A stretch of DNA of 64,000 nucleotides from a virus (Duplodnaviria > Heunggongvirae > Uroviricota > Caudoviricetes): IMG/VR virus record IMGVR_UViG_3300028805_000045; one strand, given 5' to 3'. Position 1 is the stretch's first letter. Each line of letters begins with the position of its first letter. The translations under genes and the position numbers were made by a program. The notes below the pieces were generated by a model that saw only the letters and a program-made list of their open reading frames with translations, had not been told where the DNA came from and searched no databases. This document shows, piece after piece, positions 26,825 to 39,235 of the stretch.

Positions 26825-27151
26825 TTATTTAATATTTTTTATTTCTCCATAATGTTGAATTTCTTTTTCTATGGTTTTTAAATATTCTTCCTCAACTTTT
26901 TTACTTATAAAATTAAAAAAATTATTTTTTAAACAATAAAGTTCATAAGGACTATTGCAGCCCGCACTTCCATCATTGTTGAAATAGAAGTGCGAGCAAT
27001 TAATACAACCTTTAACTGGCTTTTCTAAAAACTTGTCTCTTTTTTGAATAGCTTCTATATTAGGATGTGTAAAATTATACCAAGAAATTTCAGGAGTCTT
27101 CAATTTCCTGTGCCTCCTCAATATCAGGGGCGGTTGCTTCATCCTTGGCAA
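26825..27151 (-). CDS. Cys-rich hypothetical protein
   Basis: 108-aa ORF. Confidence 0.4.
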   Translation of the reverse strand: MPRMKQPPLILRRHRKLKTPEISWYNFTHPNIEAIQKRDKFLEKPVKGCINCSHFYFNNDGSAGCNSPYELYCLKNNFFNFISKKVEEEYLKTIEKEIQHYGEIKNIK

Positions 27152-28487
27152 TACCTTCCAACACCTTGAAAGAGAAGTTCTTGTGCTTGTACACAGCGAA
27201 GTTAGAACGGTTAAGGATACGGGCCACTACACCTTCGCGCACATGGGTCTTACCGATAGGATCAGGGCCATCGAAATACTTTTCTACCATACGGAGTACG
27301 TATTCACCGGCAGTCATGTTTACAATATCGCCATTATCATCGAGCTTACGCATTTCCTGAGGAATTATGAAAGTCTCAAATTCCATGACGGTATGCACGC
27401 CCATCTGCTCACAACGCTCCTTAATTTGAGTAGGAGAATATTCTACCACGTCGCCATCTTCATTAACCATAGTCATACGATAAACATATACTTCACAACA
27501 AGGAGCCTTGTTAAATTCTACGCCAGGATCAAGGATGTTCTTGGCTTCGTAGCTACCATCCTGCTCACAACCATAAGAGAAAGTAGTTACTGAACCATAT
27601 TGCTTAGTAAATTCAGGGTCTTTTACCTTAGAGTTCTGAACCTGACCCATAATAGGAGCACCATTAGGTCCCTGGAAACCAACGATTTCATAATAAGCAA
27701 CTTCGCCCTTGCGGAGCTTACCATCGAACTTAGCAGCCATAGCTTCACGGAAATCATCAGAGTCATAGAAACCACCAGTACGTTTTCCATCCAGGACTAC
27801 ACGACGAGTACCAGTGATATAACCATACTCCTTATATTCCTTACCATGACGATGGAACAACTTATCAAACCAAGTTTGCTTTACATGCACCAGAGGCAGA
27901 TACCCAGTACGACCAGAAGTGCCGTGCATCTTCAAAGTCAGCTGAACAGTATCACCAGGCTTAAAAGCATTAAGGTTATAAGCCAATTGAGCAGTATCAA
28001 CGTGTTCATAGAAGGTAGGTGCGATGTTGGCCTTAGCCTTCTTAGCAGCCTTAGATCCAGGTGCACCAGGAGTACGAGTCATCTTAGGGATATACTTCTG
28101 GCAGATCAGTTCTCCATTCAGAGTATCAATAGTGTCTCCAACCTTCAGATCAGAAATCTTGCAGAAATCAGCTAAAGAAGTCAATGGCATATAAAGTCCA
28201 TCAGACTTTTCACCGCGAAGCTTAAGAGCCTTAATATTACGCTTATCGGGATCAAGATAACCGCCGCATTGCTTGCCATTTTCATCCTTGCGACGAACAA
28301 GGTCATTTACTTGGCAATAGCGTTCAGATAACTGCCCATCAACAGGAAAATAAATTCCGATGTCTCCAACTTTAGTATTTAAGCTAACGATGGTATCATT
28401 TCCAAAGAAAGTTGCTATTTGTAGACGATCAGCATTAGAATGCTTACGTAGATGTTCAACTCTTACAACAAAACCAGTATAAGACAT
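27090..28487 (-). CDS. ATP-dependent RNA ligase-like protein (N-terminal OB-like domain plus nucleotidyltransferase with a KxHG motif; Rnl2/Rnl5-like)
   Basis: 465 aa. LKMHGTSGRTG is motif I of the KxHG type. An upstream KSDGL segment and a C-terminal NTase fold are also present. Confidence 0.55.
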   Translation of the reverse strand: MSYTGFVVRVEHLRKHSNADRLQIATFFGNDTIVSLNTKVGDIGIYFPVDGQLSERYCQVNDLVRRKDENGKQCGGYLDPDKRNIKALKLRGEKSDGLYMPLTSLADFCKISDLKVGDTIDTLNGELICQKYIPKMTRTPGAPGSKAAKKAKANIAPTFYEHVDTAQLAYNLNAFKPGDTVQLTLKMHGTSGRTGYLPLVHVKQTWFDKLFHRHGKEYKEYGYITGTRRVVLDGKRTGGFYDSDDFREAMAAKFDGKLRKGEVAYYEIVGFQGPNGAPIMGQVQNSKVKDPEFTKQYGSVTTFSYGCEQDGSYEAKNILDPGVEFNKAPCCEVYVYRMTMVNEDGDVVEYSPTQIKERCEQMGVHTVMEFETFIIPQEMRKLDDNGDIVNMTAGEYVLRMVEKYFDGPDPIGKTHVREGVVARILNRSNFAVYKHKNFSFKVLEGIAKDEATAPDIEEAQEIEDS

Positions 28488-28504
28488 ATTTTTTCATTCC
28501 TTTC

Positions 28505-28687
28505 TTAACTATATAAGTCATATCCACTTAATTCGATATCTCCATAAATATCATAACCAATATGTTCTATTTCTGCGCGACCATTAATAGGATAGCCTAC
28601 ACTATCTAGAATATATTCAATGAAAATTTCAACTTTTTTATCATCCGGATAGTGATTAAGCTGTTCACGTAATTCTTTTACAGTCAT
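28505..28687 (-). CDS. Hypothetical protein
   Basis: 60-aa ORF downstream of a promoter cassette. Confidence 0.4.
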   Translation of the reverse strand: MTVKELREQLNHYPDDKKVEIFIEYILDSVGYPINGRAEIEHIGYDIYGDIELSGYDLYS

Positions 28688-28699
28688 TATTATTTCCTC

Positions 28700-28738
28700 T
28701 TTATGAAATAATTATAGCATAATTTTAATTTTAAGTCA
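28700..28738 (-). promoter_or_regulatory. Promoter cassette copy
   Basis: TTGACT-N17-TATAAT. Confidence 0.55.
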
Positions 28739-28978
28739 ATTTTCTGAAGAAATAAACTTTATTATTTTAGAATTATAATATTTATAATTCCAATCTAAAG
28801 TATTAATAATTTGTTTTTCATTTAATTTAATTGGAATCCATTGTGCTGGTTTGCCACATTTTGGACATAAAATTTCTTTAATATAATATTGATTAGACTT
28901 CAATGAATTTATAACTCCATCCACAATCTTCGTCGTTCCATACAAAATATGCTCCTTTTGAATGATCGGCATGTTCAC
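28736..28978 (-). CDS. Hypothetical Zn-ribbon protein (overlaps the next ORF)
   Basis: 80-aa ORF with CPKCGK. Confidence 0.3.
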   Translation of the reverse strand: MNMPIIQKEHILYGTTKIVDGVINSLKSNQYYIKEILCPKCGKPAQWIPIKLNEKQIINTLDWNYKYYNSKIIKFISSEN

Positions 28979-29099
28979 AAATCATTAAATATCCATCATT
29001 AAATGAAGTTGTCCATTCTATTCTTTCAATCATATATACTTCATTTAATAGATAATCTTGCGCGGTATCTAGAAGCCAATCTTTATATTCGTTAGACAT
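28893..29099 (-). CDS. Hypothetical protein
   Basis: 68-aa ORF. Confidence 0.4.
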   Translation of the reverse strand: MSNEYKDWLLDTAQDYLLNEVYMIERIEWTTSFNDGYLMICEHADHSKGAYFVWNDEDCGWSYKFIEV

Positions 29100-29318
29100 T
29101 TATTTCTCCTTAATATAATCTAAAATAGTTTTTAAAGCCTTGCCTAATTCAACATATTCTTCGGTTTGCTTAATATAAGTTGAATCGCGGCCAGCCGCTT
29201 GTTTTAGAATAGCATATTCTTTTTCGACTGTATTCAATCTATCAAAGAGTTCTCGCTGTTGCTTAAGATATTTATCTTTAGCATCGTTATAACCAACAAT
29301 ATAGTTATCATCATCCAT
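29100..29318 (-). CDS. Hypothetical protein
   Basis: 72-aa ORF. Confidence 0.4.
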   Translation of the reverse strand: MDDDNYIVGYNDAKDKYLKQQRELFDRLNTVEKEYAILKQAAGRDSTYIKQTEEYVELGKALKTILDYIKEK

Positions 29319-29587
29319 TAATACAAATCCTCCGAAAATAATTCAGTCGGTAAATTAGTTTTAGGAACAATTTGATTACAATTACAAGCTTCATTATAGG
29401 CTTGAATTCGTGTCATAAATTCATCATGTTCATTTAAAAAACCTTGCTGTAAAATATTATAATCTTTATTTAGCTTATAACCAAATTCTTTTAAAATATA
29501 AAAAGCATCACAATGTCGATGGACAGGAATAATTATTTCTTTATTTTGACGTAAATCCTCAATTTTTACTGCCGCCCGCGTTATCAT
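29318..29587 (-). CDS. Hypothetical protein
   Basis: 89-aa ORF. Confidence 0.4.
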   Translation of the reverse strand: MITRAAVKIEDLRQNKEIIIPVHRHCDAFYILKEFGYKLNKDYNILQQGFLNEHDEFMTRIQAYNEACNCNQIVPKTNLPTELFSEDLY

Positions 29588-29834
29588 TTAATACTCCTTT
29601 CAGAAGGAAAAATTCAGAATGACTACCTACATCATACCAAGTAACATTTTCTTTAAACTGTTCATCAAAATCAGTCCAAGTACGAGTATAATGTACTTTA
29701 AATTTTTTATCTTCTGGTTTTCCTTTATTACAAGTACGAATAAAGGCATCAATAGCAGTATGAACTTCTTTAGAGTTTTTACACCGAGCAATTTCACGGC
29801 GGTCTCCATAGCGATTTTCAAAATATAGAACCAT
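29559..29834 (-). CDS. Hypothetical protein
   Basis: 91-aa ORF. Confidence 0.4.
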   Translation of the reverse strand: MVLYFENRYGDRREIARCKNSKEVHTAIDAFIRTCNKGKPEDKKFKVHYTRTWTDFDEQFKENVTWYDVGSHSEFFLLKGVLNDNAGGSKN

Positions 29835-29843
29835 ACTTACACC

Positions 29844-30197
29844 TCACTTTAATTCACGATTAACGTTATTTAAATGATCACCAATTTTTATTTTATCATA
29901 AATTAGTGGAGTAACATTATACCAAGCTTGATGCTGTCCATCATCACTTTTTACTAATATTGTATAAGAAGCTCCATGATATACAGGGACAGAAATTGAT
30001 TTTCCATTAACTGTTTGAGAACTATAAGAAGTATAAGGAGCATTATAATCTTTATCAATAACATAGCCACTTGTGATAGCAAGTTGTTCTTGATGATTAT
30101 GATAGGCTCCGTAAATAAGAAGGAAGAAAAGTCCAATAACTAAAATTATTCCAATAATAAAGATAAATTCTGGTTTAAAGTGAAATCGTTTTTTCAT
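29844..30197 (-). CDS. Membrane-anchored hypothetical protein
   Basis: 117 aa with an N-terminal TM helix. Confidence 0.45.
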   Translation of the reverse strand: MKKRFHFKPEFIFIIGIILVIGLFFLLIYGAYHNHQEQLAITSGYVIDKDYNAPYTSYSSQTVNGKSISVPVYHGASYTILVKSDDGQHQAWYNVTPLIYDKIKIGDHLNNVNRELK

Positions 30198-30206
30198 TAT
30201 CTCTCC

Positions 30207-30665
30207 TTATTCTTCATCAAATATAAATAATTCAATACCACGGTTTATAAGCGTTTGCCGCTGAGCATCAGTTAAAAAGCCTTCATGATAATAAGTTAAT
30301 TCATCATTGTCTTTATAAACTTTTACATATCCGGTTTGTTCGGCCACACCTTCATAAATTCCAAAACAAGCTAATGCGCAATCGTTATGTTCAAAGTAGC
30401 TGCATCCATAGAATATTCCATCCTTATCTATCCATCCATATGGAGAGTCAGATTTACTTAGATAATATTTTCGTTCAACAGTTTTCCAATCAGATTCTAT
30501 AATCCCATCATCTTCTGTAATAGTGTGAAAATTCCAACCACCAGAACTATTCTCTATTTTAACACGACATCCTGGTTCATATGGCGGATCGTCTATAATT
30601 TCCCAGTAGCCATTGTCCCAAATATGTCCATTGTCACGTTTTTCTAATATATGTAAAAATTTCAT
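30207..30665 (-). CDS. Hypothetical protein
   Basis: 152-aa ORF. Confidence 0.45.
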   Translation of the reverse strand: MKFLHILEKRDNGHIWDNGYWEIIDDPPYEPGCRVKIENSSGGWNFHTITEDDGIIESDWKTVERKYYLSKSDSPYGWIDKDGIFYGCSYFEHNDCALACFGIYEGVAEQTGYVKVYKDNDELTYYHEGFLTDAQRQTLINRGIELFIFDEE

Positions 30666-31514: not shown

Positions 31515-31524
31515 TTTCCTTTCC

Positions 31525-31566
31525 CTTTTCTATAAATATTATATCATAATTTTTATAAAAAGACAA
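31525..31566 (-). promoter_or_regulatory. Promoter cassette copy (-35 variant TTGTCT)
   Basis: Motif match. Confidence 0.5.
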
Positions 31567-31584: not shown

Positions 31585-31800
31585 TTAATCACTTTCTAGT
31601 TTCCACAAATAAAATTCTTTAATTGACTTTAAAATTTCATCGGGATATTGATCAAAATTATTTGGAGAAGCAATATATATAATATTATCTTTTTTAAAAC
31701 TAGTCATAAAATATGGTTCAGCATTAATAGCTATAATATCTCTAAAATTTTCATAAATTTGATCTAATGTACGCGAACTATTTGCACATTCCCAACTCAT
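31585..31800 (-). CDS. Hypothetical protein
   Basis: 71-aa ORF. Confidence 0.4.
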   Translation of the reverse strand: MSWECANSSRTLDQIYENFRDIIAINAEPYFMTSFKKDNIIYIASPNNFDQYPDEILKSIKEFYLWKLESD

Positions 31801-32375
31801 TTATTAGCCTCCCAAACTTGTTGAATATAACCTGATTTAATTAATTTTTCAGGAGAATTTAAAATTAAATCATTTTCTGCCGCGGCAAGGTCGTGTAAAA
31901 TAATATCTACCATTCGTTTATTAATGGGATTCATAGCTTTATTTCCTTTTTCTCTATCTTTTTCCCACCATTGTAATTCATTATAATAAGAGAAATTTTC
32001 TTCTGAATAGGCGTGAGCGGCCCCAAGAAAATCACATATTAATTCTACAAAATCATTTTTAGGCATAGGATAAATTACAGTTCCTTCGCTAAATTTATCA
32101 GACCAATATGCCCAATGATGACGATTTCGTCCTTTATGATGCAACCAAGCTTCAGAATATCCTTTATCTTGTTTTGCTGCATCAATTGGAGAACTTGTGC
32201 CAACATAGTAGCGAGCAGATTCAAAAAATTCAGTTGGACTATATTTTGATAAATCATGAGTAATTCCTCGCCATGGGATACCTGCAAGAAAGCAATAATG
32301 GCGAACCCATTTGCGGTGTAAACGAATTTTTTTCCAATGTTTTAAAATATTTTTAAAAGTTAATTTCTGGCTCAT
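31797..32375 (-). CDS. HD-domain phosphohydrolase
   Basis: 192 aa with ...HDLSKY... and a run of His residues HHKGRNRHH. Confidence 0.55.
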   Translation of the reverse strand: MSQKLTFKNILKHWKKIRLHRKWVRHYCFLAGIPWRGITHDLSKYSPTEFFESARYYVGTSSPIDAAKQDKGYSEAWLHHKGRNRHHWAYWSDKFSEGTVIYPMPKNDFVELICDFLGAAHAYSEENFSYYNELQWWEKDREKGNKAMNPINKRMVDIILHDLAAAENDLILNSPEKLIKSGYIQQVWEANK

Positions 32376-33246
32376 AGGCTCTCCTTAATCCATTTAAAAA
32401 AAAATAAACTTCAAAAATTTTATATTCAAAACGATTAATGTCATACTTTGCTACATATTCAACTTCTTTTTCTACTTCTGAAACTTTATATTCTTTACCA
32501 AAGTTATTCATATGTTGGCGAATAAATTCATATTGTTTACGACATTCTTCATTATTTGGATACTCGATTTTAGCCTTTCGAGCGATTTGTAAGTCATGTT
32601 CTCGCATATGAAGATATTCAGACACAGGAGCCTGTGGATCCAAATAGCGGTAAAGCATATGTTGTAACCGCAAAGCATGAGCATATTTTTTGCCTTCAGT
32701 CATATTACGTCCATGTAATTGATAAACTGTGCCAACAATAGCATCTACCATATTTTTATAATTAGCATGAGTTAGATAATAAAGCATTACATTATTATCA
32801 TATTCTTTAAAAACATTATAAAAATCTGGTTCATATACTTTATAGTCACTTAAAAAACATTCTACAATATTAGGAGAAGGTTTACGAAGAAGATTTAAAG
32901 CAAGTCGAATGTCCTTAATGTTTAAATGGCTTCCATCTTTCATTTCAACTGTGGTACTTACCATAGGAACACCGGAAATAAAGTCCATATAAGATGGAAG
33001 AACAAATGAATAAGTATCAACATCGCTAGAATCAGTTTCTAGACCATAATTTTGACTGCCTACTAAACATGTCATTAATACAAATTGATAATGATGTTTT
33101 TCTGCCATTAACTTAACTAATTCATGATTAGCTTGTACAGCTTTCATAGTTTCCATATTAGATTCCCTCTTTCTTTTCAAAACGCCACATAAATGTTCCG
33201 TAAGGAGTATTCTTTCTAATAGCGCGAGCAATATGACAGAAAACAT
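32353..33246 (-). CDS. Pol-beta superfamily nucleotidyltransferase (GS-x10-DVD motif)
   Basis: LVGSQNYGLETDSSDVDTY carries the canonical NTase GS...DxD signature. Lies immediately upstream of the HD protein. Confidence 0.55.
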   Translation of the reverse strand: MFSVILLALLERILLTEHLCGVLKRKRESNMETMKAVQANHELVKLMAEKHHYQFVLMTCLVGSQNYGLETDSSDVDTYSFVLPSYMDFISGVPMVSTTVEMKDGSHLNIKDIRLALNLLRKPSPNIVECFLSDYKVYEPDFYNVFKEYDNNVMLYYLTHANYKNMVDAIVGTVYQLHGRNMTEGKKYAHALRLQHMLYRYLDPQAPVSEYLHMREHDLQIARKAKIEYPNNEECRKQYEFIRQHMNNFGKEYKVSEVEKEVEYVAKYDINRFEYKIFEVYFFLNGLRRAYEPEINF

Positions 33247-33781
33247 CTTTTTTAAGAGGAGTTTTCCCGCCAGGTTTAATTGCTTTTAAAATATCTTGAT
33301 ATTCATTAACTAACGTGTCATTATAAAAAAGATTAATTTTATTTTCTGTAAATAATTTTAATAAAATACTTCCTGATTTATTAGGATCGCTGTTAAATTT
33401 TTCAATAAAATCTTCTGTTTGTTCGACACTTTCGATAGAATCTGTTTCTAAATCTGTTTGAGTATATTTGGCATAATCAGTATTTAATTGAACTTCAATC
33501 CAACGTAAATTTTTGATTGAATTATCACGTTTATTACTATTAATATGGTCGATATTATATTTTTCATTTCGTTTTCCGCCGAGCCAAGTATAAGCAACTA
33601 GTCGATGAACGAGCTGCGGGCCTTTATTAGTAAAAACTGTACAATAACCTTTTTTATCTATCCTAATATTTAGGAACTCTTTATTCTGAATAAGCCGTAC
33701 TCGTCCTTGTGTGCTAACCCAGACACCATATTCTTCGTTCTTACGCCAACGTTCGATAGAGAAATGAAAATTAGGAAACAT
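33158..33781 (-). CDS. HNH homing endonuclease
   Basis: HRLVAYTWLGG...IDHINSNKRDNSIKNLRW carries the HNH motif. Confidence 0.7.
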   Translation of the reverse strand: MFPNFHFSIERWRKNEEYGVWVSTQGRVRLIQNKEFLNIRIDKKGYCTVFTNKGPQLVHRLVAYTWLGGKRNEKYNIDHINSNKRDNSIKNLRWIEVQLNTDYAKYTQTDLETDSIESVEQTEDFIEKFNSDPNKSGSILLKLFTENKINLFYNDTLVNEYQDILKAIKPGGKTPLKKDVFCHIARAIRKNTPYGTFMWRFEKKEGI

Positions 33782-33799: not shown

Positions 33800-33843
33800 C
33801 TTTCTTACATATATATTATATCAAAAATTTTAAAAAAAATCAA
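33800..33843 (-). promoter_or_regulatory. Promoter cassette copy (-35 variant TTGATT) upstream of the HNH gene
   Basis: Motif match. Confidence 0.5.
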
Positions 33844-33851
33844 GGGTTAGA

Positions 33852-33876
33852 CTTTCATCTAACCCTATATTTTATA
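33852..33876 (-). terminator. Rho-independent terminator
   Basis: Minus-strand hairpin GGGTTAGATGAAAGTCTAACCC followed by a T-run. Confidence 0.5.
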
Positions 33877-33878: not shown

Positions 33879-35423
33879 TTATAGAACTGAGTGAATTTCT
33901 TTATATCGCTCACTTAGGAGTTTGTCCATCATGAGGTCAATAGAAGTCTTTCCGCTCATAATCATTTCAAAAGTTACAGGAGAGGCACCGGATACGTAAG
34001 TTACTCCTTGCTTGTCTTGCATAGGCATATTACCATTGGTAACAGTAGCATTGACATTCCAGTAAACTAGCTTAGGCATTTTATAGCCGTAGCTGTTCCA
34101 CTTACGTTCAATGTTTTCCATTAGAGAGCCACTGCCGTTACGGGCATAATAACCACGGCCAACATCAAACTGCATATCACTGATTACGATGATATTTTTA
34201 GGTAAATCTTCTTGACGTAGGTGATTCTTTACCGCAGTATTTAGAATTAAGTCAAAGGTTGCTTCAATGTTAGTATTCTCGCAAAGATTTTGACGATAAA
34301 TACGACTCACCTTATCGCAGAAGTCTACACCAACGGTTTCAATTAGCTGAGGACGAGAACTAAAAGAAATAAAGTGGTTCTTGAAAGGCCCGTTCGCACG
34401 TTCAGCACAGTATAGACCAAGAGAAATAGCAATATCCATAGGACACACGCCACTATTCATCACTGGGGTTGTCATACTGCCACTCGTGTCGATTACGGCA
34501 AGAGCATTAAGAGTAGCTTTATGGAAATAATCAGTTAGATTATCCCAATACTTATTGACGGCTAGACGATTTACATCATTGACTCCGACTTTAAGATCAT
34601 AGTTATTATATCCCCACCAGCCATTGCAGCCATTATGTCCCCATAGTTTGGTTACTTCATGTACTACATCATAAGGATATAGAGTTCCTGCATTAACCTT
34701 AGTGGTTTCATCCTTCATGAATTTCTCATAACGAGCCTTAGTTACGTCATGGCGTGCAAAGGCATTCTTATAAATTAGACCAGCGCGAGAAGGTAGTTTA
34801 TCGAACTCAATTTCATCCCAACGATTTTGAGACATTAGAGTTTCAACAATATTGATACGGGCGCGAAGAGCAGAAAGCATCTTACGATATTCGCGAGGAG
34901 ATAGCCCAAAAGCTTCACGAGTTTTAGTTGCAAGGTCGCGGCTTTCTTGAGAAGAAGTATTCTCACTCTTTAGCCACTTGGCGAGTAGAGAAGGAGTTTT
35001 ACAAGATACGTCAAGCACAGCCTGATTATACATAAACTTAAACATATCCTTTTCTACGCTGGTTCCTACTAGAGAATATAGATCATCCCAACGACCAAAT
35101 TCAGGAATCTGCTTGATTAGGTTCTGCATTTCACGAGGATAATGCTTACCTAGCCAATTAATACAAGCACGGAAGAAATGACGTTCGCCTTGGCCTCCGC
35201 GCACGTCACGAAGATAAAATACGCATTTCAAAGCAAGAGACTTATCTTCTTCATAAGCATTTTTAAATAGTAAGATACAATCTTCTTCAGAAGCATTGCG
35301 CATTGCAGCGCCAGTAGCAAATAGGTCATAGACCTTATTCATGGTGGATTTATAAGTAGTAGCTCCATTGGCGGTAGTAGTAACGTTAGAAACAGTTTTT
35401 AGACCCTTTAGTAATTCATTCAT
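33879..35423 (-). CDS. vWA-domain protein with an N-terminal TROVE-like region (Ro60/Rsr-like)
   Basis: 514 aa. MIDAS motif VIDTSGSM. Size and domain order match Ro60 orthologues. The N-terminal region is unverified. Confidence 0.5.
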   Translation of the reverse strand: MNELLKGLKTVSNVTTTANGATTYKSTMNKVYDLFATGAAMRNASEEDCILLFKNAYEEDKSLALKCVFYLRDVRGGQGERHFFRACINWLGKHYPREMQNLIKQIPEFGRWDDLYSLVGTSVEKDMFKFMYNQAVLDVSCKTPSLLAKWLKSENTSSQESRDLATKTREAFGLSPREYRKMLSALRARINIVETLMSQNRWDEIEFDKLPSRAGLIYKNAFARHDVTKARYEKFMKDETTKVNAGTLYPYDVVHEVTKLWGHNGCNGWWGYNNYDLKVGVNDVNRLAVNKYWDNLTDYFHKATLNALAVIDTSGSMTTPVMNSGVCPMDIAISLGLYCAERANGPFKNHFISFSSRPQLIETVGVDFCDKVSRIYRQNLCENTNIEATFDLILNTAVKNHLRQEDLPKNIIVISDMQFDVGRGYYARNGSGSLMENIERKWNSYGYKMPKLVYWNVNATVTNGNMPMQDKQGVTYVSGASPVTFEMIMSGKTSIDLMMDKLLSERYKEIHSVL

Positions 35424-35489: not shown

Positions 35490-35537
35490 TATGCTATTTT
35501 ATATATTTATTATACTATAATTTTTATCTAAAGTCAA
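35490..35537 (-). promoter_or_regulatory. Promoter cassette copy (-10 region partly duplicated) upstream of the vWA gene
   Basis: Motif match. Confidence 0.5.
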
Positions 35538-35839: not shown

Positions 35840-35842
35840 CTC

Positions 35843-36049
35843 TTATATAGTTTTAAAACATAAACATTCAGTTTTTTCAATGTTTGTTTTACAAGTTTTA
35901 TCTTTTAATTTACATTTATAATATCCAGGTTCTTCAATAAATGGAGGATTGGGAATCCATTTACTATACGGACATTCGCTAGGTTTAATTACGTCAACAT
36001 ATTCTTTCATATTAATCTCCTTCAAATGCTGCGGCAAGGCGACCGCCAA
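35843..36049 (-). CDS. Hypothetical protein
   Basis: 68-aa ORF. Confidence 0.35.
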   Translation of the reverse strand: MAVALPQHLKEINMKEYVDVIKPSECPYSKWIPNPPFIEEPGYYKCKLKDKTCKTNIEKTECLCFKTI

Positions 36050-36578
36050 TTAAGTTTCCTGCGGCTATAATTAAAATTTTTAAAAGTGATATGGGGCCAT
36101 GACCGAGAGCCACAAAATAGAAGTAGTCAGCAATAGAGTGATTAAATCCTGCTAGAATAAATGCGGCTACGGCTAATGTGCTAATCCATAATGGAGTTAA
36201 CCTATATGTAGCGATTGTCATTAAAGCTCCACACATAATGCTATTAAATATTAAAGTATCAATTGGAATAGCATCTTTTATCATACCAATCTTTTGTGCG
36301 CCAACAAGTATATTTGGAGAAAAAAACATAACTAAGAGAAAAATAAAATTTACTCCAAGACAGTTATCAATAAAAATCCAAAAGATTTTCATTGGTTTAT
36401 ATGGTGAATTCTTTTTTAAAAAGAATTGAGTTTTTCCTGTATATAAGTCTAGTTGGAATAATCGTATAGCAAGCAAGCCTAATGAAAAACAAATGGCTCC
36501 AATTGTTTTATCTGGAATAGCAACATACATACAGCACCCGAGTCCAATTAGCATTCCAGCAAGGAATGGATTTTTCAT
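36012..36578 (-). CDS. Polytopic membrane protein (FNT-transporter-like segment)
   Basis: 188 aa with 5-6 TM segments and an NHSIADYFYF motif. Confidence 0.45.
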   Translation of the reverse strand: MKNPFLAGMLIGLGCCMYVAIPDKTIGAICFSLGLLAIRLFQLDLYTGKTQFFLKKNSPYKPMKIFWIFIDNCLGVNFIFLLVMFFSPNILVGAQKIGMIKDAIPIDTLIFNSIMCGALMTIATYRLTPLWISTLAVAAFILAGFNHSIADYFYFVALGHGPISLLKILIIAAGNLIGGRLAAAFEGD

Positions 36579-36961
36579 TCAGTTTCAAGCTCCTTTAAGG
36601 CGTTTAAATCATGCTGAAGATTTTGAATATAATGCTTTACTGAGAATACATTATAATCATCCTCATAATCACCGCCATCATGCCGAATAGCAATATACCA
36701 TCCAGGACCATCATAATGATAATAAGCATTTCGAAGCCATGTCTTTTGTTGAAGATATTTTAAATCATCCTCAGATTCTATTTTATAACAATATTCGTAA
36801 TCTTCTGTTGTTAGTAATTCAATATAACACTTTGGAATTTGTTTTTCTGGCATAAGTTCTACTTCATGCTTTTCTGCATCTCGTTTACTTGTAAATGTTT
36901 TTCCATCACTAGTAATATAAACTTTGTATTCTTGTGAACGAACTCGAATTTCCTCTTTCAT
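36575..36961 (-). CDS. Hypothetical protein
   Basis: 128-aa ORF. Confidence 0.45.
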   Translation of the reverse strand: MKEEIRVRSQEYKVYITSDGKTFTSKRDAEKHEVELMPEKQIPKCYIELLTTEDYEYCYKIESEDDLKYLQQKTWLRNAYYHYDGPGWYIAIRHDGGDYEDDYNVFSVKHYIQNLQHDLNALKELETE

Positions 36962-36962
36962 A

Positions 36963-37589
36963 TTATTCTCCTTTCATTGGATAGGTGTATAAATCTTCAA
37001 TTGGAATTTTTAACGATTGTAAATCAAACCAACGTTGACGTATTTCTCCAATAATTTCTTCAATGTTTACTGGTTTACAATCATGACTATCCATTCCTAC
37101 ATGATAACAGAATGGATTGTTAGGATATAAAAAGTTAGCTTGTTGATGAGTATGCCCATGTAAAGCGATTACATGTTGATTAAAATGCTTTTCATCATAA
37201 TTAGCTGTCAATGTTGGATAGTGAGAAAGATAACATGTAATTTTATTGTTATATTTAAACATAGTTGCCCAAGAAGCTTCTGGATTACTAATTAATGAAA
37301 CATTTTTACATTCTTTAGTAATTTCTTCTACTTTCGACCTTGAATCGTGGTTTCCTCGAATCCACCAAATAAAACCATTTAATTTTTTAATATATGCAAT
37401 TGCATCCGCAGTATCTGTCAAAGCCATATCACCAAGATGATAAACAATATCATCTGATTTTACTATACTATTCCATTTTTCTACAATTATTTCATTCATT
37501 TCTCTTACAGAAGAAAATCCGCGGGGACTCCACAAAAATTCTGGCTTATGAGAAAAATGTGTATCACTCGTTAGATAGATTTCACTCAT
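36963..37589 (-). CDS. Calcineurin-like metallophosphoesterase
   Basis: Carries DTHFSH...GDMALTD...GNHD...HGHTHQ motifs. Confidence 0.7.
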   Translation of the reverse strand: MSEIYLTSDTHFSHKPEFLWSPRGFSSVREMNEIIVEKWNSIVKSDDIVYHLGDMALTDTADAIAYIKKLNGFIWWIRGNHDSRSKVEEITKECKNVSLISNPEASWATMFKYNNKITCYLSHYPTLTANYDEKHFNQHVIALHGHTHQQANFLYPNNPFCYHVGMDSHDCKPVNIEEIIGEIRQRWFDLQSLKIPIEDLYTYPMKGE

Positions 37590-38065
37590 ATTTCCAATTC
37601 TCCATCAATAGTAACCATTCCAATTTCACGTTTGTCTTCGTGATTAGGAATAGTAAGCGAAGCGCGCATACGATGAATAACGTTTTCTGGAACTAACGCG
37701 CGGCCTTCACGATTTTTATTATGTTCAATGCAAGTCTCAGCAGAAGCCGTAAAAATTACATAAACAATATTATATTCAGTAAAATCAAGATCAATCGCTG
37801 CGGTTAGCTTTTTACGCGAAGCTGCATTAAGTTGGGTTGCATCAGCAAGTACGTGCTTACCTTCGCTAAGAGCCTGTGCAATTAATTTAGAATAGTGCCG
37901 AAATACTTCTTTTTCGTGAGAAAAATAATCTTCATCTGATTTAATAAACCGAAAACGAATTTCGTCACGAGAAATCCATTTTACAGAATCAGAAGTAAAT
38001 TGCTTCGCAAAGGTAGATTTGCCGCACCCAGGAGCACCGCAAAGAATATATAAAGTAGGCTTCAT
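37586..38065 (-). CDS. P-loop kinase (polynucleotide kinase-like)
   Basis: LYILCGAPGCGKSTFAKQF forms a Walker A. Overlaps the phosphoesterase gene by 4 nt. Confidence 0.6.
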   Translation of the reverse strand: MKPTLYILCGAPGCGKSTFAKQFTSDSVKWISRDEIRFRFIKSDEDYFSHEKEVFRHYSKLIAQALSEGKHVLADATQLNAASRKKLTAAIDLDFTEYNIVYVIFTASAETCIEHNKNREGRALVPENVIHRMRASLTIPNHEDKREIGMVTIDGELEI

Positions 38066-38075
38066 ACTTAATCTC

Positions 38076-38122
38076 CTTTTCTTTTATATAAATATTATAT
38101 AATAATTTATATAATAAGTCAA
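38076..38122 (-). promoter_or_regulatory. Promoter cassette copy upstream of the kinase gene
   Basis: Motif match. Confidence 0.5.
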
Positions 38123-38140
38123 ATAAAAAAGAAGAGGAAA

Positions 38141-38410
38141 TTATTCAATTTCCTCTTCTTCATCGTAATTCATTTCGTCTAATTGACGGCGATCTCGCGG
38201 ACTCCAATTCATTCTTGGCCCATAATGTCCACGATTATTAGTTTTAGTCGCGCATAAATGGCAGGAACAATGAATCTTATTTTTACTGTATTGATGAAGG
38301 TTATCATACCAATCATGTTCCCAACCTTGTGGGGCAGTTTCACGATCAATTCTACGTTTACGAATTGCTTTTTTAAAATCATTATGACGTTTTTCGGCAG
38401 TTGGACGCAT
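38141..38410 (-). CDS. Hypothetical basic protein (start reassigned to MRPTAEKRH so that it does not overlap the tRNA-Ser)
   Basis: The N-terminal 40 aa of ORF-track entry 38141..38533 is a translated tRNA gene. Confidence 0.4.
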   Translation of the reverse strand: MRPTAEKRHNDFKKAIRKRRIDRETAPQGWEHDWYDNLHQYSKNKIHCSCHLCATKTNNRGHYGPRMNWSPRDRRQLDEMNYDEEEEIE

Positions 38411-38435
38411 AGATAACACTTCCTTTATATACAAT

Positions 38436-38524
38436 TGGCGGGCAGAGTAGGATTTGAACCCACGGACGCTCGTCACGCCAACGGTTTTCAAGACCGCCGC
38501 CTTAAGCCACTCGGCCATCTGCCC
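38436..38524 (-). tRNA. tRNA-Ser (anticodon TGA), type II
   Basis: Hand-folded cloverleaf: acceptor GGGCAGA/TCTGCCC, anticodon loop CTTGAAA, long variable arm, T-loop TTCAAAT, G73, CCA encoded. Confidence 0.8.
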
Positions 38525-38533
38525 ATAAAACAA

Positions 38534-38638
38534 GATAGTTATGGAAGGGATTCGAACCCTTGTCTCTTACTTTTTACGGTAAGTGTCTTAGTCCCCTAGA
38601 CAACCTCGGCTAGTATTTGCTGTAAGAGCCGAATAACT
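38534..38638 (-). tRNA. Atypical tRNA-like element
   Basis: D, anticodon (loop CGTAAAA) and T arms are recognisable. It is flanked by the 9-bp inverted repeat GATAGTTAT/ATAACTATC and carries an extra 5' hairpin containing CTCTTACAGCAAA. There is no canonical acceptor stem. Confidence 0.25.
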
Positions 38639-38646
38639 ATCTTAAT

Positions 38647-38721
38647 TGGAGCCGCCGATAGGATTTGAACCTACAACATCTCGCTTACAAGGCGAGCCCA
38701 CTACCATTGTGATACGACGGC
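38647..38721 (-). tRNA. tRNA-Thr (TGT)
   Basis: Acceptor GCCGTCG/CGGCGGC, loop CTTGTAA, CCA encoded. Confidence 0.8.
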
Positions 38722-38797
38722 ATATTTCTAGACTCTTCCATATTAACCATATATGTAATAAAATGTCGGTAAGTATATTGCTGTAAGAGTCATAATT

Positions 38798-39235
38798 TTA
38801 TTTATAAAGTTGAAATTTTTTTGAAATTTTCCAAGCAACTTCATCTGGAAGCGGCTTAAATCCAATACATGTCAATGTTCTTCCAATTCCATTTTCATCA
38901 ATTTTTTCAGGAGTAAGCTCAGTTAAACAAGCATCCCAAATTAAAAAATAATCTTTATTTTCTTTTAATCCAAGTTCTTTTGCTATATTTGTAGCTTTCA
39001 TTAGTTGATTATAATTTTTAGCTTCACATACTGTTTTTGTAAAAACTCCTTTAAACCATTGATCCATTACTTCTTTATCTAATAAAACTGAAACATTATA
39101 TCCAGTTTCATTTTCAATTGCGGGAGTATTACGAATTTGATTTGATATAAAAGCAAAAGAAGCATGTGCTACTTGCGCGGCTAATTTTCCTGCACTCATA
39201 TTTAAATCTTTACGCGCAATAATTATTTGTCTCAT
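38798..39235 (-). CDS. Peptidyl-tRNA hydrolase, PTH2 family
   Basis: IIARKDLNMSAGKLAAQVAHAS matches the PTH2 consensus (VRTDLGMGKGKIAAQCSHAA). Confidence 0.65.
   Translation of the reverse strand: MRQIIIARKDLNMSAGKLAAQVAHASFAFISNQIRNTPAIENETGYNVSVLLDKEVMDQWFKGVFTKTVCEAKNYNQLMKATNIAKELGLKENKDYFLIWDACLTELTPEKIDENGIGRTLTCIGFKPLPDEVAWKISKKFQLYK

What the first reader, a model, noticed from the sequence alone, without database searches (positions are those of the whole stretch)
27090..39235. Clustered RNA-repair and tRNA-maintenance genes
Within about 12 kb the window encodes the following. (a) An RNA-ligase-like protein with a KxHG motif. (b) A P-loop polynucleotide-kinase-like protein that overlaps a calcineurin-type phosphoesterase. 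(c) A Pol-beta nucleotidyltransferase that overlaps an HD phosphohydrolase, the domain pair of class II CCA-adding enzymes. (d) A PTH2 peptidyl-tRNA hydrolase. A second ATP-dependent ligase and RNase H lie further upstream. Kinase, phosphatase and ligase together form the classic healing and sealing toolkit used against anticodon nucleases. An NTase plus HD pair could restore 3' CCA on the many phage tRNAs that lack an encoded CCA. Together with the tRNA array this suggests the phage defends and maintains its own decoding apparatus.
Basis: partly seen in the sequence, partly recalled or inferred. Interest (0 to 1): 0.65.

Follow-up and report, generated by a model that had tools for sequence, protein, structure and literature searches.

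The report
Phage RNA-repair island with Ro/Y-RNA module
A large uncultured phage carries, next to its 31 tRNA genes, a known kind of RNA-repair toolkit (kinase, phosphatase, ligase, nucleotide-adding enzyme, peptidyl-tRNA hydrolase); it also carries a Ro60-like protein and a family of small tRNA-mimicking RNAs with an invariant CAGCAA box that accompany this protein in very different phages, are absent from Rfam 15 as a family, and were not found in the paper library searched.

Summary
They are an Rnl5-type RNA ligase, a Pnkp-type kinase overlapping a calcineurin-type phosphoesterase, a Pol-beta nucleotidyltransferase overlapping a second gene, and PTH2. The RNA-repair reading holds and is a known phage theme. 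Three details fail. The nucleotidyltransferase is RlaP (PF10127), not a CCA-adding enzyme. Its partner is DUF5662, which has an HD-like motif but no profile support. And 25 of 31 tRNAs already encode CCA. The "second ligase" and RNase H are replication genes. Its AlphaFold model matches Ro60/Rsr over its full length. A covariance model finds the same RNAs beside DUF2828 genes in Felix O1, Tsamsa, a mycobacteriophage, and Klebsiella, Staphylococcus, Campylobacter and Enterococcus phages. Rfam's YrlA model scores them below threshold. Best reading: a phage RNA-damage-response island with its own Ro/Y-RNA-like module. All functions are inferred; nothing was tested biochemically.

The parts
27090..28487 (-). 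Rnl5-type ATP-dependent RNA ligase (N-terminal OB domain plus nucleotidyltransferase domain), 465 aa
   Evidence: phrog_968 at E 1.5e-69. TIGR02306 (DraRnl family) at E 3.7e-14, below its cutoff. Motif residues K186, G189, E267, E418, G419, K434 and K436 are invariant in 54 homologs. AF2 model has pLDDT 83.6; its best PDB match is NgrRnl 6vt4, E 1.1e-16, TM(target) 0.66-0.70.
37586..38065 (-). Pnkp-type polynucleotide 5'-kinase (P-loop), 159 aa
   Evidence: AAA_33 at E 3e-20; phrog_505 polynucleotide kinase at E 7.8e-22. TIGR04075 bacter_Pnkp at E 1.8e-14, far below its full-length cutoff. Best PDB match is the CthPnkp kinase domain 4gp6 (E 1.5e-9), then Pnkp1 4xrp. Walker A GAPGCGKST and a SRDEIR motif are visible in the sequence.
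36963..37589 (-). Calcineurin-type metallophosphoesterase, 208 aa; its start overlaps the kinase stop (ATGA)
   Evidence: Metallophos_2 at 36.3 bits against a cutoff of 27; phrog_547 at E 9.5e-44. Nearest solved structure is 1xm7 (aq_1665), E 1.1e-5. The kinase-then-phosphoesterase order is kept in every relative that has both genes.
32353..33156 (-). RlaP nucleotidyltransferase (Pol-beta superfamily). The open frame runs to 33246, but the likely start is the ATG at 33156, just after the HNH stop
   Evidence: PF10127 RlaP at 44.2 bits against a cutoff of 23; phrog_388. A GS...DVD motif is visible in the sequence. No PolyA_pol hit.
31797..32375 (-). DUF5662 protein, 192 aa; overlaps the RlaP 3' end by 23 nt. 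Possible HD-like phosphohydrolase, unproven
   Evidence: PF18907 at 105.6 bits. H20, H40, D41, H80, H86 and H87 are invariant and D115 is at least 90% conserved in 47 homologs. No PDB hit by profile. 1 of 47 members touches HD at E 0.054.
33879..35423 (-). Ro60/Rsr-like RNA-binding protein (HEAT-repeat ring plus vWA domain with MIDAS), Pfam DUF2828+DUF7788, 514 aa
   Evidence: Pfam E 1e-32 and E 1e-43; phrog_850 at E 2.4e-133. AF2 model has pLDDT 80.6; its top 11 PDB matches are all Ro60, Rsr or the phage TROVE structure 9kop, aligned over full length, E 1e-7 to 2e-5. D312-T-S-G-S316 is invariant or nearly so in 45 homologs.
35509..35537 (-). Promoter-like site (TTGACT-17-TATAAT) in front of the Ro60-like gene
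   Evidence: 11 of 12 matches. Similar sites lie at 38094-38122 (before the kinase) and 28711-28739 (before the ligase unit).
33843..33866 (-). Intrinsic-terminator-like hairpin after the Ro60-like gene
   Evidence: 10-bp stem followed by a T run.
33158..33781 (-). HNH homing endonuclease inserted between the Ro60-like gene and RlaP
   Evidence: HNH_3 at E 2e-8, plus NUMOD4. Absent at this position in most relatives; present in L114.
38798..39235 (-). PTH2 peptidyl-tRNA hydrolase, 145 aa
   Evidence: PF01981 at 78.2 bits against a cutoff of 23. NF003314 at E 2e-18, below its cutoff.
50575..50684 (-). Y RNA-like ncRNA, tRNA-mimic form, copy 1: P1 stem UAGACUC/GAGUCUA, UUACAGCAA box, then V, T, closed acceptor and D arms
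   Evidence: Rfam YrlA at 35.3 bits against a gathering score of 69, E 1.3e-4, full-length match. Model R1 gives 84.6 bits, but this copy was in the training set.
48336..48461 (-). Y RNA-like ncRNA, tRNA-mimic form, copy 2 (box GU-CAGCAA)
   Evidence: R1 gives 51.5 bits, E about 1e-6 to 1e-7; not in the training set. Rfam YrlA at 22.3 bits.
47472..47595 (-). Y RNA-like ncRNA, tRNA-mimic form, copy 3
   Evidence: R1 gives 42.7 bits, E about 5e-6. P1, box, T arm, closed AS hairpin and D arm are all aligned.
44355..44423 (-). Short CAGCAA-box hairpin RNA (P1 ACGACGA/UCGUCGU plus UUACAGCAA)
   Evidence: Sequence. R1 gives 37.6 bits.
39350..39424 (-). Short CAGCAA-box hairpin RNA (P1 CAAGAUCG/CGAUCUUG)
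   Evidence: Sequence. R1 gives 31.4 bits.
39249..39340 (-). Short CAGCAA-box hairpin RNA (P1 UAGGCUC/GAGCCUA)
   Evidence: Sequence. R1 gives 20.2 bits with filters off.
39801..39871 (-). Short hairpin RNA with variant box UAACAGCAA
   Evidence: Sequence. R1 gives 23.1 bits.
38725..38796 (-). Short CAGCAA-box hairpin RNA (P1 GACUC/GAGUC)
   Evidence: Sequence. R1 gives 22.4 bits.
38436..52734 (-). tRNA array: 31 ARAGORN tRNAs plus 2 found by Rfam only. 25 of the 31 have an encoded CCA. Includes a suppressor tRNA(CUA) at 43958-44047
25454..26401 (-). SPFH/Band-7 membrane protein that travels with the ligase in relatives (role unknown)
   Evidence: Band_7 at E 2e-25. Lies next to the ligase in L004, L005, L008, L014 and L017. 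Also lies near DUF2828 in an unrelated gut-phage group.

Best explanation
The region is the protein-coding half of a phage island for RNA damage response and translation maintenance. The island spans roughly 25-53 kb of the window.

Inferred workflow:
1. Host ribotoxins (anticodon nucleases and similar enzymes) cut tRNAs, leaving 2',3'-cyclic-phosphate and 5'-OH ends.
2. The calcineurin-type phosphoesterase removes the 3' phosphate. The Pnkp-type kinase phosphorylates the 5' end. The two genes are translationally coupled.
3. RlaP can put back one or two nucleotides if the nuclease also trimmed the 3' end.
4. The Rnl5-type ligase seals the nick in the folded, duplex-like stem-loop.
5. PTH2 frees tRNAs trapped as peptidyl-tRNA after ribosome stalling.
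6. The 31 phage tRNAs replace or supplement host tRNAs.

The monocistronic DUF2828 gene encodes a Ro60-like ring protein. Its proposed partners are the CAGCAA-box RNAs in the tRNA array: three YrlA-like tRNA mimics and at least five short hairpins. By analogy with Rsr-YrlA and with phiLo phiRo60-Yrl, this particle would bind damaged or misfolded RNA, or recruit a host exoribonuclease. It could also act as a decoy against a host defence.

Shown here: gene identities by profile and fold, conservation of gene content, RNA covariation, and the RNA-gene association across phages. Inferred: every biochemical activity, the substrates, and the protein-RNA binding.
For: Enzymes:
- Pfam, PHROG and NCBIfam hits.
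- The kinase matches the CthPnkp kinase domain, PDB 4gp6, E 1.5e-9.
- The ligase AF2 model matches NgrRnl over full length, E 1e-16, with the catalytic motifs invariant.
- RlaP is above its Pfam cutoff, and its activity is published (PMC12776372).
- Co-occurrence of DUF2828, RlaP, Rnl, PNK, the phosphoesterase, DUF5662 and SPFH within 20 kb in 17 related contigs of 43-89% ligase identity.
- Listeria phage LMLPA3 has DUF2828 next to RtcB, an RNA ligase and a phosphoesterase, just downstream of its tRNA array.
- This repertoire is described for large phages (PMC7824862).

Ro-like protein:
- Foldseek top hits are all Ro60/Rsr/TROVE.
- The MIDAS DxSxS motif is conserved.

RNAs:
- The exact box TTACAGCAA is enriched on the gene strand inside the tRNA array.
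- RNAalifold independently recovers the P1, T, AS and D helices, and 20 of 22 pairs show compensatory changes.
- In an independent set anchored on DUF2828 genes (24 of 25 sequences not in training), 96.1% of cells are paired against 62.6% in shuffles. 21 of 22 pairs are compensatory, and CAGCAA is invariant in 24 of 24.
- All 109 model hits in 1.13 Mb lie on the gene strand.
- In at least 45 of 119 loci found by RNA pattern alone, a DUF2828 gene is present in the locus. Where coordinates were compared, it begins 200-700 nt downstream on the same strand.
- Strong hits lie beside DUF2828 in Felix O1, Appletree2, KP2025 and Tsamsa. Weaker hits lie beside it in Staphylococcus, Campylobacter, Enterococcus, Synechococcus and Listeria phages.
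Against: - No experiment supports any activity.
- The ligase itself is below the Pfam and NCBIfam cutoffs. Characterised Rnl5 enzymes seal nicks in duplexes and have no proven tRNA-repair role.
- The nearest solved relative of the phosphoesterase is an uncharacterised protein.
- Gene order is shuffled among relatives, so this is not a fixed operon.
- In this window the tRNA-like RNA copies lie 12-15 kb from the Ro-like gene. The link therefore rests on other phages.
- The P1 stems in the training alignment were picked by a script that required pairing.
- The model contains a tRNA-like core. It also scores some tRNA dimers (for example 39455-39561), and short forms score weakly (20-38 bits).
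- Two of eleven cultured phages gave no convincing RNA: Vibrio R11Z and Acinetobacter ME3.
- In the only genetic study found (Bas63 gp130), the Ro-like protein countered a DNA-targeting defence candidate (ppl), not a ribotoxin (PMC11482910).
Confidence: 0.65

Rival explanations
1. One reading: the NTase plus 'HD' pair is a split class II CCA-adding enzyme that restores 3' CCA on phage tRNAs that lack it.
For: - Pol-beta fold NTase with a GS...DxD motif.
- The downstream overlapping gene has a conserved H..HD..H..D pattern.
- 6 of 31 tRNAs lack an encoded CCA.
- RlaP adds untemplated nucleotides to RNA 3' ends (PMC12776372).
Against: - No PolyA_pol (PF01743) hit; the protein is RlaP, above its cutoff.
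- DUF5662 has no significant HD profile match.
- The two genes are adjacent in only one of the relatives that have both.
- 25 of 31 tRNAs encode CCA.
- Phages with real CCA enzymes carry a recognisable tRNA nucleotidyltransferase, for example Acinetobacter phage ME3.
Confidence: 0.05
2. The kinase, phosphoesterase and Rnl5 ligase serve DNA replication or repair, for example sealing RNA-primed nicks or processing ends. They would work together with the nearby DNA ligase and RNase H, not in tRNA repair.
For: - NgrRnl and DraRnl seal duplex nicks whose 3'-OH strand is RNA (titles of the PDB entries; established biochemistry, from my own knowledge).
- A DNA ligase, RNase H, dNMP kinase and PhoH lie 6-10 kb away on the same strand.
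Against: - The genes cluster with RlaP, the Ro-like protein, PTH2 and the tRNA array, not with the replication genes.
- The same association holds in relatives.
- The kinase's nearest solved relatives are RNA-repair Pnkp enzymes.
- The phage already has a dedicated DNA ligase.
Confidence: 0.12
3. The CAGCAA-box hairpins are not partners of the Ro-like protein. They are processing or punctuation signals of tRNA-array transcripts, or a mobile repeat that spreads within tRNA arrays.
For: - In the window, six of the eight copies listed in parts start within about 25 nt of a tRNA 3' end (the copies at 39249-39340 and 48336-48461 do not), and all lie inside the array.
- In the window's own clade the hits lie on the tRNA-array side of the Ro-like gene.
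- Several copies per genome.
Against: - In mycobacteriophage Appletree2 a 61.5-bit copy lies 106 nt after the Ro-like gene, with no tRNA annotated within 4 kb. In the Staphylococcus phage two copies abut the gene; the only annotated tRNA in the locus lies about 2.2 kb further downstream.
- DUF2828 is present in the locus in at least 45 of 119 pattern-found loci from many lineages.
- The architecture equals YrlA, a known Ro partner.
- The box sits where YrlA carries its proposed Rsr-binding motif (PMC4201824).
Confidence: 0.15
4. The Ro-like protein and its RNAs form a counter-defence decoy or inhibitor (as proposed for Bas63 gp130 against ppl) and have no functional tie to the neighbouring repair enzymes. 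The clustering would only reflect shared early expression.
For: - Bas63 gp130, a Ro60-like protein of a Felix O1-like phage, counters the ppl system (PMC11482910).
- The Ro-like gene has its own promoter and terminator.
- Many DUF2828 phages (Felix O1, Appletree2) show no repair enzymes within 4 kb.
Against: - DUF2828 is followed directly by RlaP in several relatives. It lies within 20 kb of the ligase, kinase and phosphoesterase in 11 of 17 related loci.
- Listeria phage LMLPA3 places it with RtcB and an RNA ligase.
- In bacteria, rsr-yrlA sits in the rtcBA RNA-repair operon (PMC4201824, PMC7790460).
Confidence: 0.25

Closest known systems
T4 Pnkp + Rnl1 healing and sealing against the PrrC anticodon nuclease
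   Same: Phage-encoded 5'-kinase, 3'-phosphatase and ATP-dependent RNA ligase, next to phage tRNA genes. The proposed logic is the same: undo host tRNA cleavage.
   Different: - Kinase and phosphatase are separate, overlapping genes here.
- The phosphatase is a calcineurin-type metalloenzyme, not the DxDxT type of T4 Pnkp.
- The ligase is Rnl5-type (N-terminal OB domain), not Rnl1.
The T4 details come from established knowledge and were not tested here.
Bacterial Pnkp-based RNA repair (Clostridium thermocellum Pnkp/Hen1; Capnocytophaga Pnkp1-Rnl-Hen1)
   Same: The kinase domain is homologous (4gp6 E 1.5e-9; 4xrp E 5e-7). It is paired with a calcineurin-type phosphoesterase, as in CthPnkp.
   Different: - No fused ligase domain.
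- No Hen1 methyltransferase was seen in the window.
- The phosphoesterase's nearest solved relative is aq_1665, not the Pnkp phosphatase.
Rnl5 RNA ligases (Naegleria NgrRnl, Deinococcus DraRnl)
   Same: N-terminal OB domain followed by the nucleotidyltransferase domain. Full-length structural match. TIGR02306 similarity. Motifs I, III, IV and V present.
   Different: - 465 aa against 340 aa, with about 100 extra residues as insertions, including a disordered linker at 138-154.
- Only 15% sequence identity.
- Below the family cutoffs.
RlaP (PF10127; PfRlaP, PaRlaP, T4 NrdC.11)
   Same: Pfam member above its cutoff. Lies among RNA ligase genes, as the family name implies. A 5'-phosphate ligase is present, which accepts the 3'-OH that RlaP leaves (PMC12776372).
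   Different: Only distantly related to the characterised Pseudomonas enzymes. No PDB sequence hit. Activity not tested.
Rsr (bacterial Ro60) with YrlA/YrlB in the rtcBA RNA-repair operon; Thermus phage phiLo phiRo60 with Yrl1/Yrl2
   Same: - Ring-plus-vWA protein fold.
- Small RNAs with a long closing stem, some carrying a tRNA mimic (V, T, closed acceptor and D arms), encoded near the gene on the same strand.
- Association with RNA-repair genes.
   Different: - The protein is Pfam DUF2828/DUF7788 rather than TROVE, with 12-16% identity to solved Ro60s.
- The RNAs carry an invariant CAGCAA box where YrlA has GNCGAAN0-1G and the phiLo Yrls have CGAA.
- They score 22-40 bits against Rfam YrlA's gathering score of 69.
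- In this phage the copies are scattered through the tRNA array.
RNA-repair repertoire of jumbo phages (Iyer et al. 2021, PMC7824862)
   Same: Same parts list: tRNAs, ATP-dependent RNA ligases, kinases and phosphoesterases, RlaP, and an occasional ROT/TROVE protein.
   Different: - This phage is probably below the jumbo size: the longest contig carrying the identical ligase is 189.6 kb.
- That survey, in the passages retrieved, does not describe the RNA partners.

Membership tests
Rnl5 RNA ligase (DraRnl/NgrRnl) | Covalent nucleotidyltransferase motifs I (KxxG), III, IV and V | tested here: met
   K186, G189, E267, E418, G419, K434 and K436 are invariant across 54 homologs.
Rnl5 RNA ligase (DraRnl/NgrRnl) | OB domain placed N-terminal to the nucleotidyltransferase domain | tested here: met
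   PF21189 covers residues 7-102 (E 1.3e-4, below cutoff). The AF2 model aligns over the whole of NgrRnl, E 1e-16, TM(target) 0.66-0.70.
Rnl5 RNA ligase (DraRnl/NgrRnl) | Curated family score (TIGR02306 151 bits; Pfam RNA_ligase 27 bits) | tested here: not met
   52.4 bits and 18.4 bits for the window protein. Close homologs (P0123, P0124, P0162) and more distant ones do carry PF09414/PF21189 hits.
Rnl5 RNA ligase (DraRnl/NgrRnl) | Seals 3'-OH/5'-PO4 nicks with an RNA 3'-OH strand | not testable with these tools
   Biochemical assay needed.
Pnkp-type polynucleotide 5'-kinase | P-loop kinase homologous to the Pnkp kinase domain, with Walker A and a D-x-x-R motif | tested here: met
   4gp6 at E 1.5e-9. 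GAPGCGKST and SRDEIR are visible in the sequence.
Pnkp-type polynucleotide 5'-kinase | Full bacterial Pnkp architecture (kinase-phosphatase-ligase in one chain; TIGR04075 750 bits) | tested here: not met
   Only the kinase part matches (52.9 bits, profile positions 9-140). The phosphoesterase is a separate gene.
Calcineurin-like metallophosphoesterase | Pfam gathering score and the D-x-H / GD / GNH metal motifs | tested here: met
   Metallophos_2 at 36.3 bits against a cutoff of 27. DTH, GD and GNHD are visible in the sequence.
Calcineurin-like metallophosphoesterase | RNA 2',3'-cyclic phosphodiesterase / 3'-phosphatase activity | not testable with these tools
   Inferred only from the conserved coupling to the kinase.
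RlaP (PF10127) | Pfam gathering score | tested here: met
   44.2 bits against a cutoff of 23.
RlaP (PF10127) | Neighbourhood of RNA ligase or other RNA-repair genes | tested here: met
   Window, and 10 of 17 related loci.
Class II CCA-adding enzyme | PolyA_pol head domain (PF01743) | tested here: not met
   No hit at E <= 0.01.
Class II CCA-adding enzyme | HD domain as the C-terminal part of the same enzyme | tested here: not met
   Separate gene, DUF5662. No significant HD match. Adjacency is not conserved.
Class II CCA-adding enzyme | Need: tRNA genes without an encoded CCA | tested here: not met
   25 of 31 tRNAs encode CCA.
HD phosphohydrolase superfamily (for DUF5662) | Conserved H...HD...H...D metal ligands | tested here: inconclusive
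   H20, H40, D41, H80, H86 and H87 are invariant and D115 is at least 90% conserved. However, a profile search of the PDB found nothing, 1 of 47 members hits HD at E 0.054, and hhalign against a phage 'metal-dependent phosphohydrolase' gives probability 0.7%.
Ro60 / Rsr (TROVE + vWA) | HEAT-repeat ring followed by a vWA domain with a MIDAS DxSxS motif | tested here: met
   AF2 pLDDT 80.6. The 11 best PDB matches are Ro60, Rsr or phage TROVE over about 570 columns. DTSGS at 312-316 is conserved.
Ro60 / Rsr (TROVE + vWA) | Sequence membership in Pfam TROVE | tested here: not met
   Only DUF2828 and DUF7788 hit. phmmer against the PDB finds no Ro60.
Ro60 / Rsr (TROVE + vWA) | Binds Y RNA | not testable with these tools
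   Candidate RNAs were identified in silico only.
YrlA (Rfam RF02553) | Closing stem enclosing V, T, closed acceptor-like and D arms | tested here: met
   cmscan alignment. RNAalifold and covariation counts.
YrlA (Rfam RF02553) | Rfam gathering score (69 bits) | tested here: not met
   Window copies score 35.3 and 22.3 bits. KP2025 and Appletree2 copies score 34-40 bits.
YrlA (Rfam RF02553) | 5' motif GNCGAAN0-1G (proposed Rsr site) | tested here: not met
   Replaced by (U)UA-CAGCAA. CAGCAA is invariant in 24 of 24 sequences. The motif definition comes from PMC4201824.
YrlA (Rfam RF02553) | Encoded within about 4 kb of the Ro gene on the same strand | tested here: inconclusive
   Same strand always. 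Within 4 kb in relatives and in 9 of 11 cultured phages. In the window, the tRNA-like copies are 12-15 kb away and the nearest short copy is 3.3 kb away.
PTH2 peptidyl-tRNA hydrolase | Pfam gathering score | tested here: met
   78.2 bits against a cutoff of 23. The NCBIfam equivalog cutoffs are not reached: 66.6 bits against 126.

The most novel reading that the evidence does not exclude
The CAGCAA-box RNAs are a widespread class of phage Y RNA-like ncRNAs that has not been described before. They are the cognate ligands of the DUF2828 Ro60-like proteins, which occur in 711 of 50,697 phage records, including Felix O1, Tsamsa, P100-like Listeria phages and cluster-L-type mycobacteriophages. Together they form a ribonucleoprotein that phages use to manage damaged RNA or to disarm host defences.
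Probability: 0.4. Interest if true: 0.75.

Novelty: new variant of a known kind. Interest (0 to 1): 0.6.

Why it matters
Phage RNA-repair gene sets are already catalogued, so the enzyme cluster alone adds one more example.

The added value is the link between a very common phage protein of unclear role (DUF2828, often annotated only as 'hypothetical' or 'RNA-binding protein') and a concrete, searchable RNA family. That family has an invariant six-base box and strongly covarying helices.

This gives testable candidates for the RNA partner of Ro-like proteins in model phages that can be grown today: Felix O1/Bas63, Tsamsa and mycobacteriophages. One of these proteins has been reported to counter a bacterial defence.

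It also explains unannotated gaps, 'tRNA-Undet' calls and tiny 'hypothetical protein' calls in public phage records.

Finally, it supplies a covariance model that could be turned into a new Rfam family.

Tried and rejected
- **Rfam at gathering thresholds** found no Y RNA. Only the permissive search exposed the sub-threshold YrlA hit.
- **megablast** of the 12 kb against cultured phages found nothing but a tRNA fragment.
- **Single-sequence and 15-sequence profile searches of the PDB** for the ligase gave only marginal NgrRnl hits (E 0.04-0.24). A more diverse alignment plus AF2 was needed.
- **DUF5662.** Phmmer against the PDB, a profile search of the PDB, a Pfam scan of 47 members and hhalign against the Listeria-phage 'metal-dependent phosphohydrolase' all failed to place it. 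That Listeria protein itself has no Pfam hit.
- **My first stem-finding script** (at least 6 of 7 pairs within 30-200 nt) is expected to succeed by chance several times per site. It was dropped as evidence in favour of the covariance model. The exact-box scan of 80 relatives under-counted because the first three box positions vary.
- **Skipping-rope RNA** was considered as the identity of the hairpins and rejected after reading its sequence and description.
- **Literature searches** for DUF2828, DUF5662 and the box sequence found nothing relevant. Burroughs and Aravind 2016 is not held in the library.
- **The 559-nt gap at 39960-40518** was examined as a possible large ncRNA. Only its first 130 nt (a promoter plus a 31-codon ORF) are conserved in the loci held.

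Full report
**Context**

The window is a low-GC (29-43%) stretch of a large phage genome. All genes lie on the - strand. There are 31 ARAGORN tRNAs between 38436 and 52734, together with a ROOL RNA, a skipping-rope RNA and an abiF RNA. The ligase protein is identical to one found on JGI contigs of up to 189.6 kb, in sample 3300024486. Seventeen related IMG/VR contigs of up to 193 kb carry ligases that are 43-89% identical. No cultured phage is close at the DNA level.

**Checking the observation**

- **Ligase.** ORF 27090-28487 (465 aa) carries K186-M-H-G189. It matches PHROG 968 'RNA ligase' at E 1.5e-69. The Pfam RNA_ligase and PHA02142-OB hits and the NCBIfam DraRnl model (E 3.7e-14) fall below their curated cutoffs.
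- **Kinase and phosphoesterase.** ORF 37586-38065 is a P-loop kinase (AAA_33, E 3e-20; PHROG polynucleotide kinase). Its stop overlaps the start (ATGA) of ORF 36963-37589, a calcineurin-type phosphoesterase above the Pfam cutoff.
- **NTase and partner.** ORF 32353-33246 is a Pol-beta nucleotidyltransferase and overlaps ORF 31797-32375 by 23 nt.
- **PTH2.** ORF 38798-39235 is PTH2 (78.2 bits against a cutoff of 23).
- **Second ligase and RNase H.** The 'second ATP-dependent ligase' (18217-19362) is a DNA ligase, and RNase H is at 20438-21004. They sit with a dNMP kinase and PhoH. This is a replication set. It lies downstream in the direction of transcription, not upstream.

**What the enzymes are**

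- **Kinase.** The nearest solved relatives are the kinase domain of Clostridium thermocellum Pnkp (4gp6, E 1.5e-9) and Pnkp1 of the Capnocytophaga repair complex (4xrp).
- **Ligase.** I built a 54-sequence alignment spanning 35-88% identity. It shows the nucleotidyltransferase motif residues invariant. The AlphaFold model (pLDDT 83.6) superposes on the whole of Naegleria RNA ligase, the Rnl5 prototype (E 1e-16, TM 0.66-0.70). Rnl2-type enzymes come far behind. So it works like an Rnl5 ligase, but it is a distant member, with about 100 extra residues.
- **Nucleotidyltransferase.** It is RlaP (PF10127, 44.2 bits against a cutoff of 23) and gives no PolyA_pol hit. A 2025 preprint shows that RlaP enzymes add one or two nucleotides to the 3'-OH of damaged RNA. 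It proposes that they restore bases removed by nucleases such as RloC before ligation by a 5'-phosphate ligase (PMC12776372).
- **RlaP's partner.** The overlapping gene is DUF5662. Its homologs keep an H..HD..H..D pattern, but no profile method tied it to HD proteins. In relatives it is usually not next to RlaP.
- **CCA.** 25 of 31 tRNAs already encode CCA.

On this evidence the CCA-adding reading is rejected.

**The missed protein**

Between the kinase operon and RlaP lies a 514-aa gene (33879-35423). It has its own promoter-like site and its own terminator. Pfam calls it DUF2828+DUF7788, and PHROGs calls it 'RNA-binding protein'. Its AlphaFold model (pLDDT 80.6) has Ro60 from frog and human, Deinococcus Rsr, and the Thermus-phage TROVE structure 9kop as its eleven best PDB matches, each aligned over the full length. 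The vWA MIDAS motif DTSGS is conserved. Homologs occur in 711 of 50,697 phage records from many hosts. An HNH homing endonuclease is inserted between this gene and RlaP. In several relatives the two are direct neighbours.

**The missed RNAs**

A permissive Rfam scan gave a full-length but sub-threshold YrlA (bacterial Y RNA) hit at 50568-50668: 35.3 bits against a gathering score of 69. The sequence is a circularly arranged tRNA mimic: V arm, T arm, an acceptor-like hairpin closed by a loop, and a D arm. All of this is enclosed by a closing stem.

Reading the intergenic gaps showed the same closing-stem design, followed at once by UUACAGCAA, after several tRNAs. The exact box is enriched on the gene strand inside the array.

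Most show the same architecture. At least 45 carry a DUF2828 gene that is only 24-52% identical to ours. Where coordinates were compared, that gene begins 200-700 nt downstream on the same strand.

**Testing the RNA family**

1. RNAalifold on 22 sequences recovered four helices on its own, and 20 of 22 pairs show compensatory changes. The covariation score is 0.81, against 0.25 for shuffles and 0.08-0.14 for slid partners. One caveat applies: the closing stems of this set were chosen by a script that required pairing.
2. I therefore built a covariance model (R1) and searched loci collected by the protein, not by the RNA.
3. All 109 hits in 1.13 Mb are on the gene strand.
4. The 25 best hits, 24 of them not in the training set, give 96.1% paired cells against 62.6% for shuffles. 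Compensatory changes occur in 21 of 22 pairs, including all seven of the closing stem. CAGCAA is invariant in 24 of 24.
5. In the window the model finds two further tRNA-like copies (48336-48461 and 47472-47595) and five short copies. All are on the - strand.

**Cultured phages**

The model finds the RNAs beside the DUF2828 gene in these phages:

| Phage | Score (bits) | Position relative to the DUF2828 gene |
|---|---|---|
| Felix O1 | 67.2, plus two short copies | in gaps of the tRNA array that follows the gene |
| Mycobacteriophage Appletree2 | 61.5 | 106 nt after the gene, no tRNA annotated within 4 kb |
| Klebsiella phage KP2025 | 70.2 and 66.8 | two tandem copies after the gene |
| Bacillus phage Tsamsa | 49.2, plus a short copy | short copy about 90 nt before the gene |
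| Staphylococcus, Campylobacter, Enterococcus, Synechococcus and Listeria phages | 29.7-34.9 (best hit per phage) | within 2 kb, same strand |
| Vibrio R11Z | marginal (19.4, E 0.09) | just before the gene |
| Acinetobacter ME3 | no hit | - |

Rfam's YrlA model scores the best of these only 34-40 bits.

**Literature**

- Chen et al. 2014 found YrlA near TROVE-annotated Ro genes in 22 phages. They proposed GNCGAAN0-1G as the Rsr site (PMC4201824).
- Thermus phage phiLo phiRo60 binds two upstream Y-like RNAs that carry a CGAA motif, and it also binds host PNPase (PMC12135203).
- A screen in Bas63, a Felix O1 relative, found that its Ro60-like gp130 counters the ppl defence. The authors guessed that some neighbouring 'tRNA genes' might be Y RNAs (PMC11482910).
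- No paper in the library mentions DUF2828 in phages or the box sequence.

**Verdict**

The finding is a real cluster of RNA-repair and tRNA-maintenance genes, of a kind already described for large phages (PMC7824862). The CCA sub-hypothesis and the role it gave the second ligase do not.

The more interesting content is a Ro60-like protein and a covarying, CAGCAA-box Y-like RNA family. This family travels with that protein across very different phages and is not captured by Rfam 15. All functions remain inferences from homology, fold, gene context and covariation.

Noticed in passing
window 53901-64000 and 23253-25385 (- strand); suppressor tRNA at 43958-44047: If TAG is read through, the fragmented late-region ORFs merge into frames of 426-761 codons containing 4-15 in-frame TAGs each, and 23253-25385 becomes 710 codons with 13 TAGs. 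The repair-cluster genes have no convincing internal TAG and end mostly in TAA or TGA. The phage encodes a tRNA with anticodon CUA that has a long variable arm and a G discriminator, so it looks Ser-like. This points to TAG recoding of late genes, which would make the phage dependent on its own tRNA.
   Followed up: partly
window 45678-46258 (-): A full-length ROOL RNA (323 bits) sits inside the tRNA array. A skipping-rope RNA lies at 42836-42903 and an abiF RNA at 52614-52650.
   Followed up: no
window 38537-38640 (-): A weak tRNA-like gene (Rfam 34.2 bits, not called by ARAGORN) is preceded at its 5' edge by a small hairpin UCGGCU[CUUACAGCAAAUACU]AGCCGA that holds the box in its loop. It may be a hybrid of a tRNA and a box element.
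   Followed up: partly
window 25454-26401 (-); loci L004, L005, L008, L014, L017, L027, L037, L042, L075: An SPFH/Band-7 membrane protein lies next to the ligase in relatives. It also lies about 4-5 kb from DUF2828 in an unrelated, very abundant gut-phage group. Its role is unknown.
   Followed up: partly
window 39960-40518 (-): A 559-nt stretch without a long ORF. It begins with a strong promoter-like site and a 31-codon ORF that are conserved in L139 and L005. The remaining roughly 400 nt are GC-richer, fold extensively, have no Rfam hit, and are not conserved in the loci held.
   Followed up: partly
window 36012-36578 (-) and 13526-14701 (-): A truncated formate/nitrite-transporter-like membrane protein sits inside the kinase operon, and a xanthine/uracil-family permease lies further along. 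Both are unusual cargo for a phage.
   Followed up: no
L221 5519-5608; L228 5863-5972; L227 3905-4336; L001 7236-7365: Public annotations appear to mislabel these RNAs or miss them:
- a 90-nt 'hypothetical protein' CDS in Staphylococcus phage S-CoN_Ph8 overlaps a box hairpin;
- 'tRNA-Undet' in Synechococcus phage B23 overlaps a model hit;
- a 432-nt 'tRNA-Arg' in Klebsiella phage KP2025 runs into the DUF2828 gene;
- Tsamsa has an unannotated 155-nt gap that holds a 49-bit hit.
   Followed up: partly
window 28711-28739, 31538-31566, 33815-33843, 35509-35537, 38094-38122 (-): Near-consensus TTGACT-17-TATAAT sites, several with an extended -10 TG, sit in most intergenic gaps of the cluster. This suggests several short early transcription units read by host RNA polymerase. 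The overall count of promoter-like sites in the region is not above the shuffled expectation.
   Followed up: partly
window 50448-50520 (-): An extra tRNA (Rfam 43.5 bits, anticodon loop CUCAUAA, so CAU) that ARAGORN did not report.
   Followed up: no
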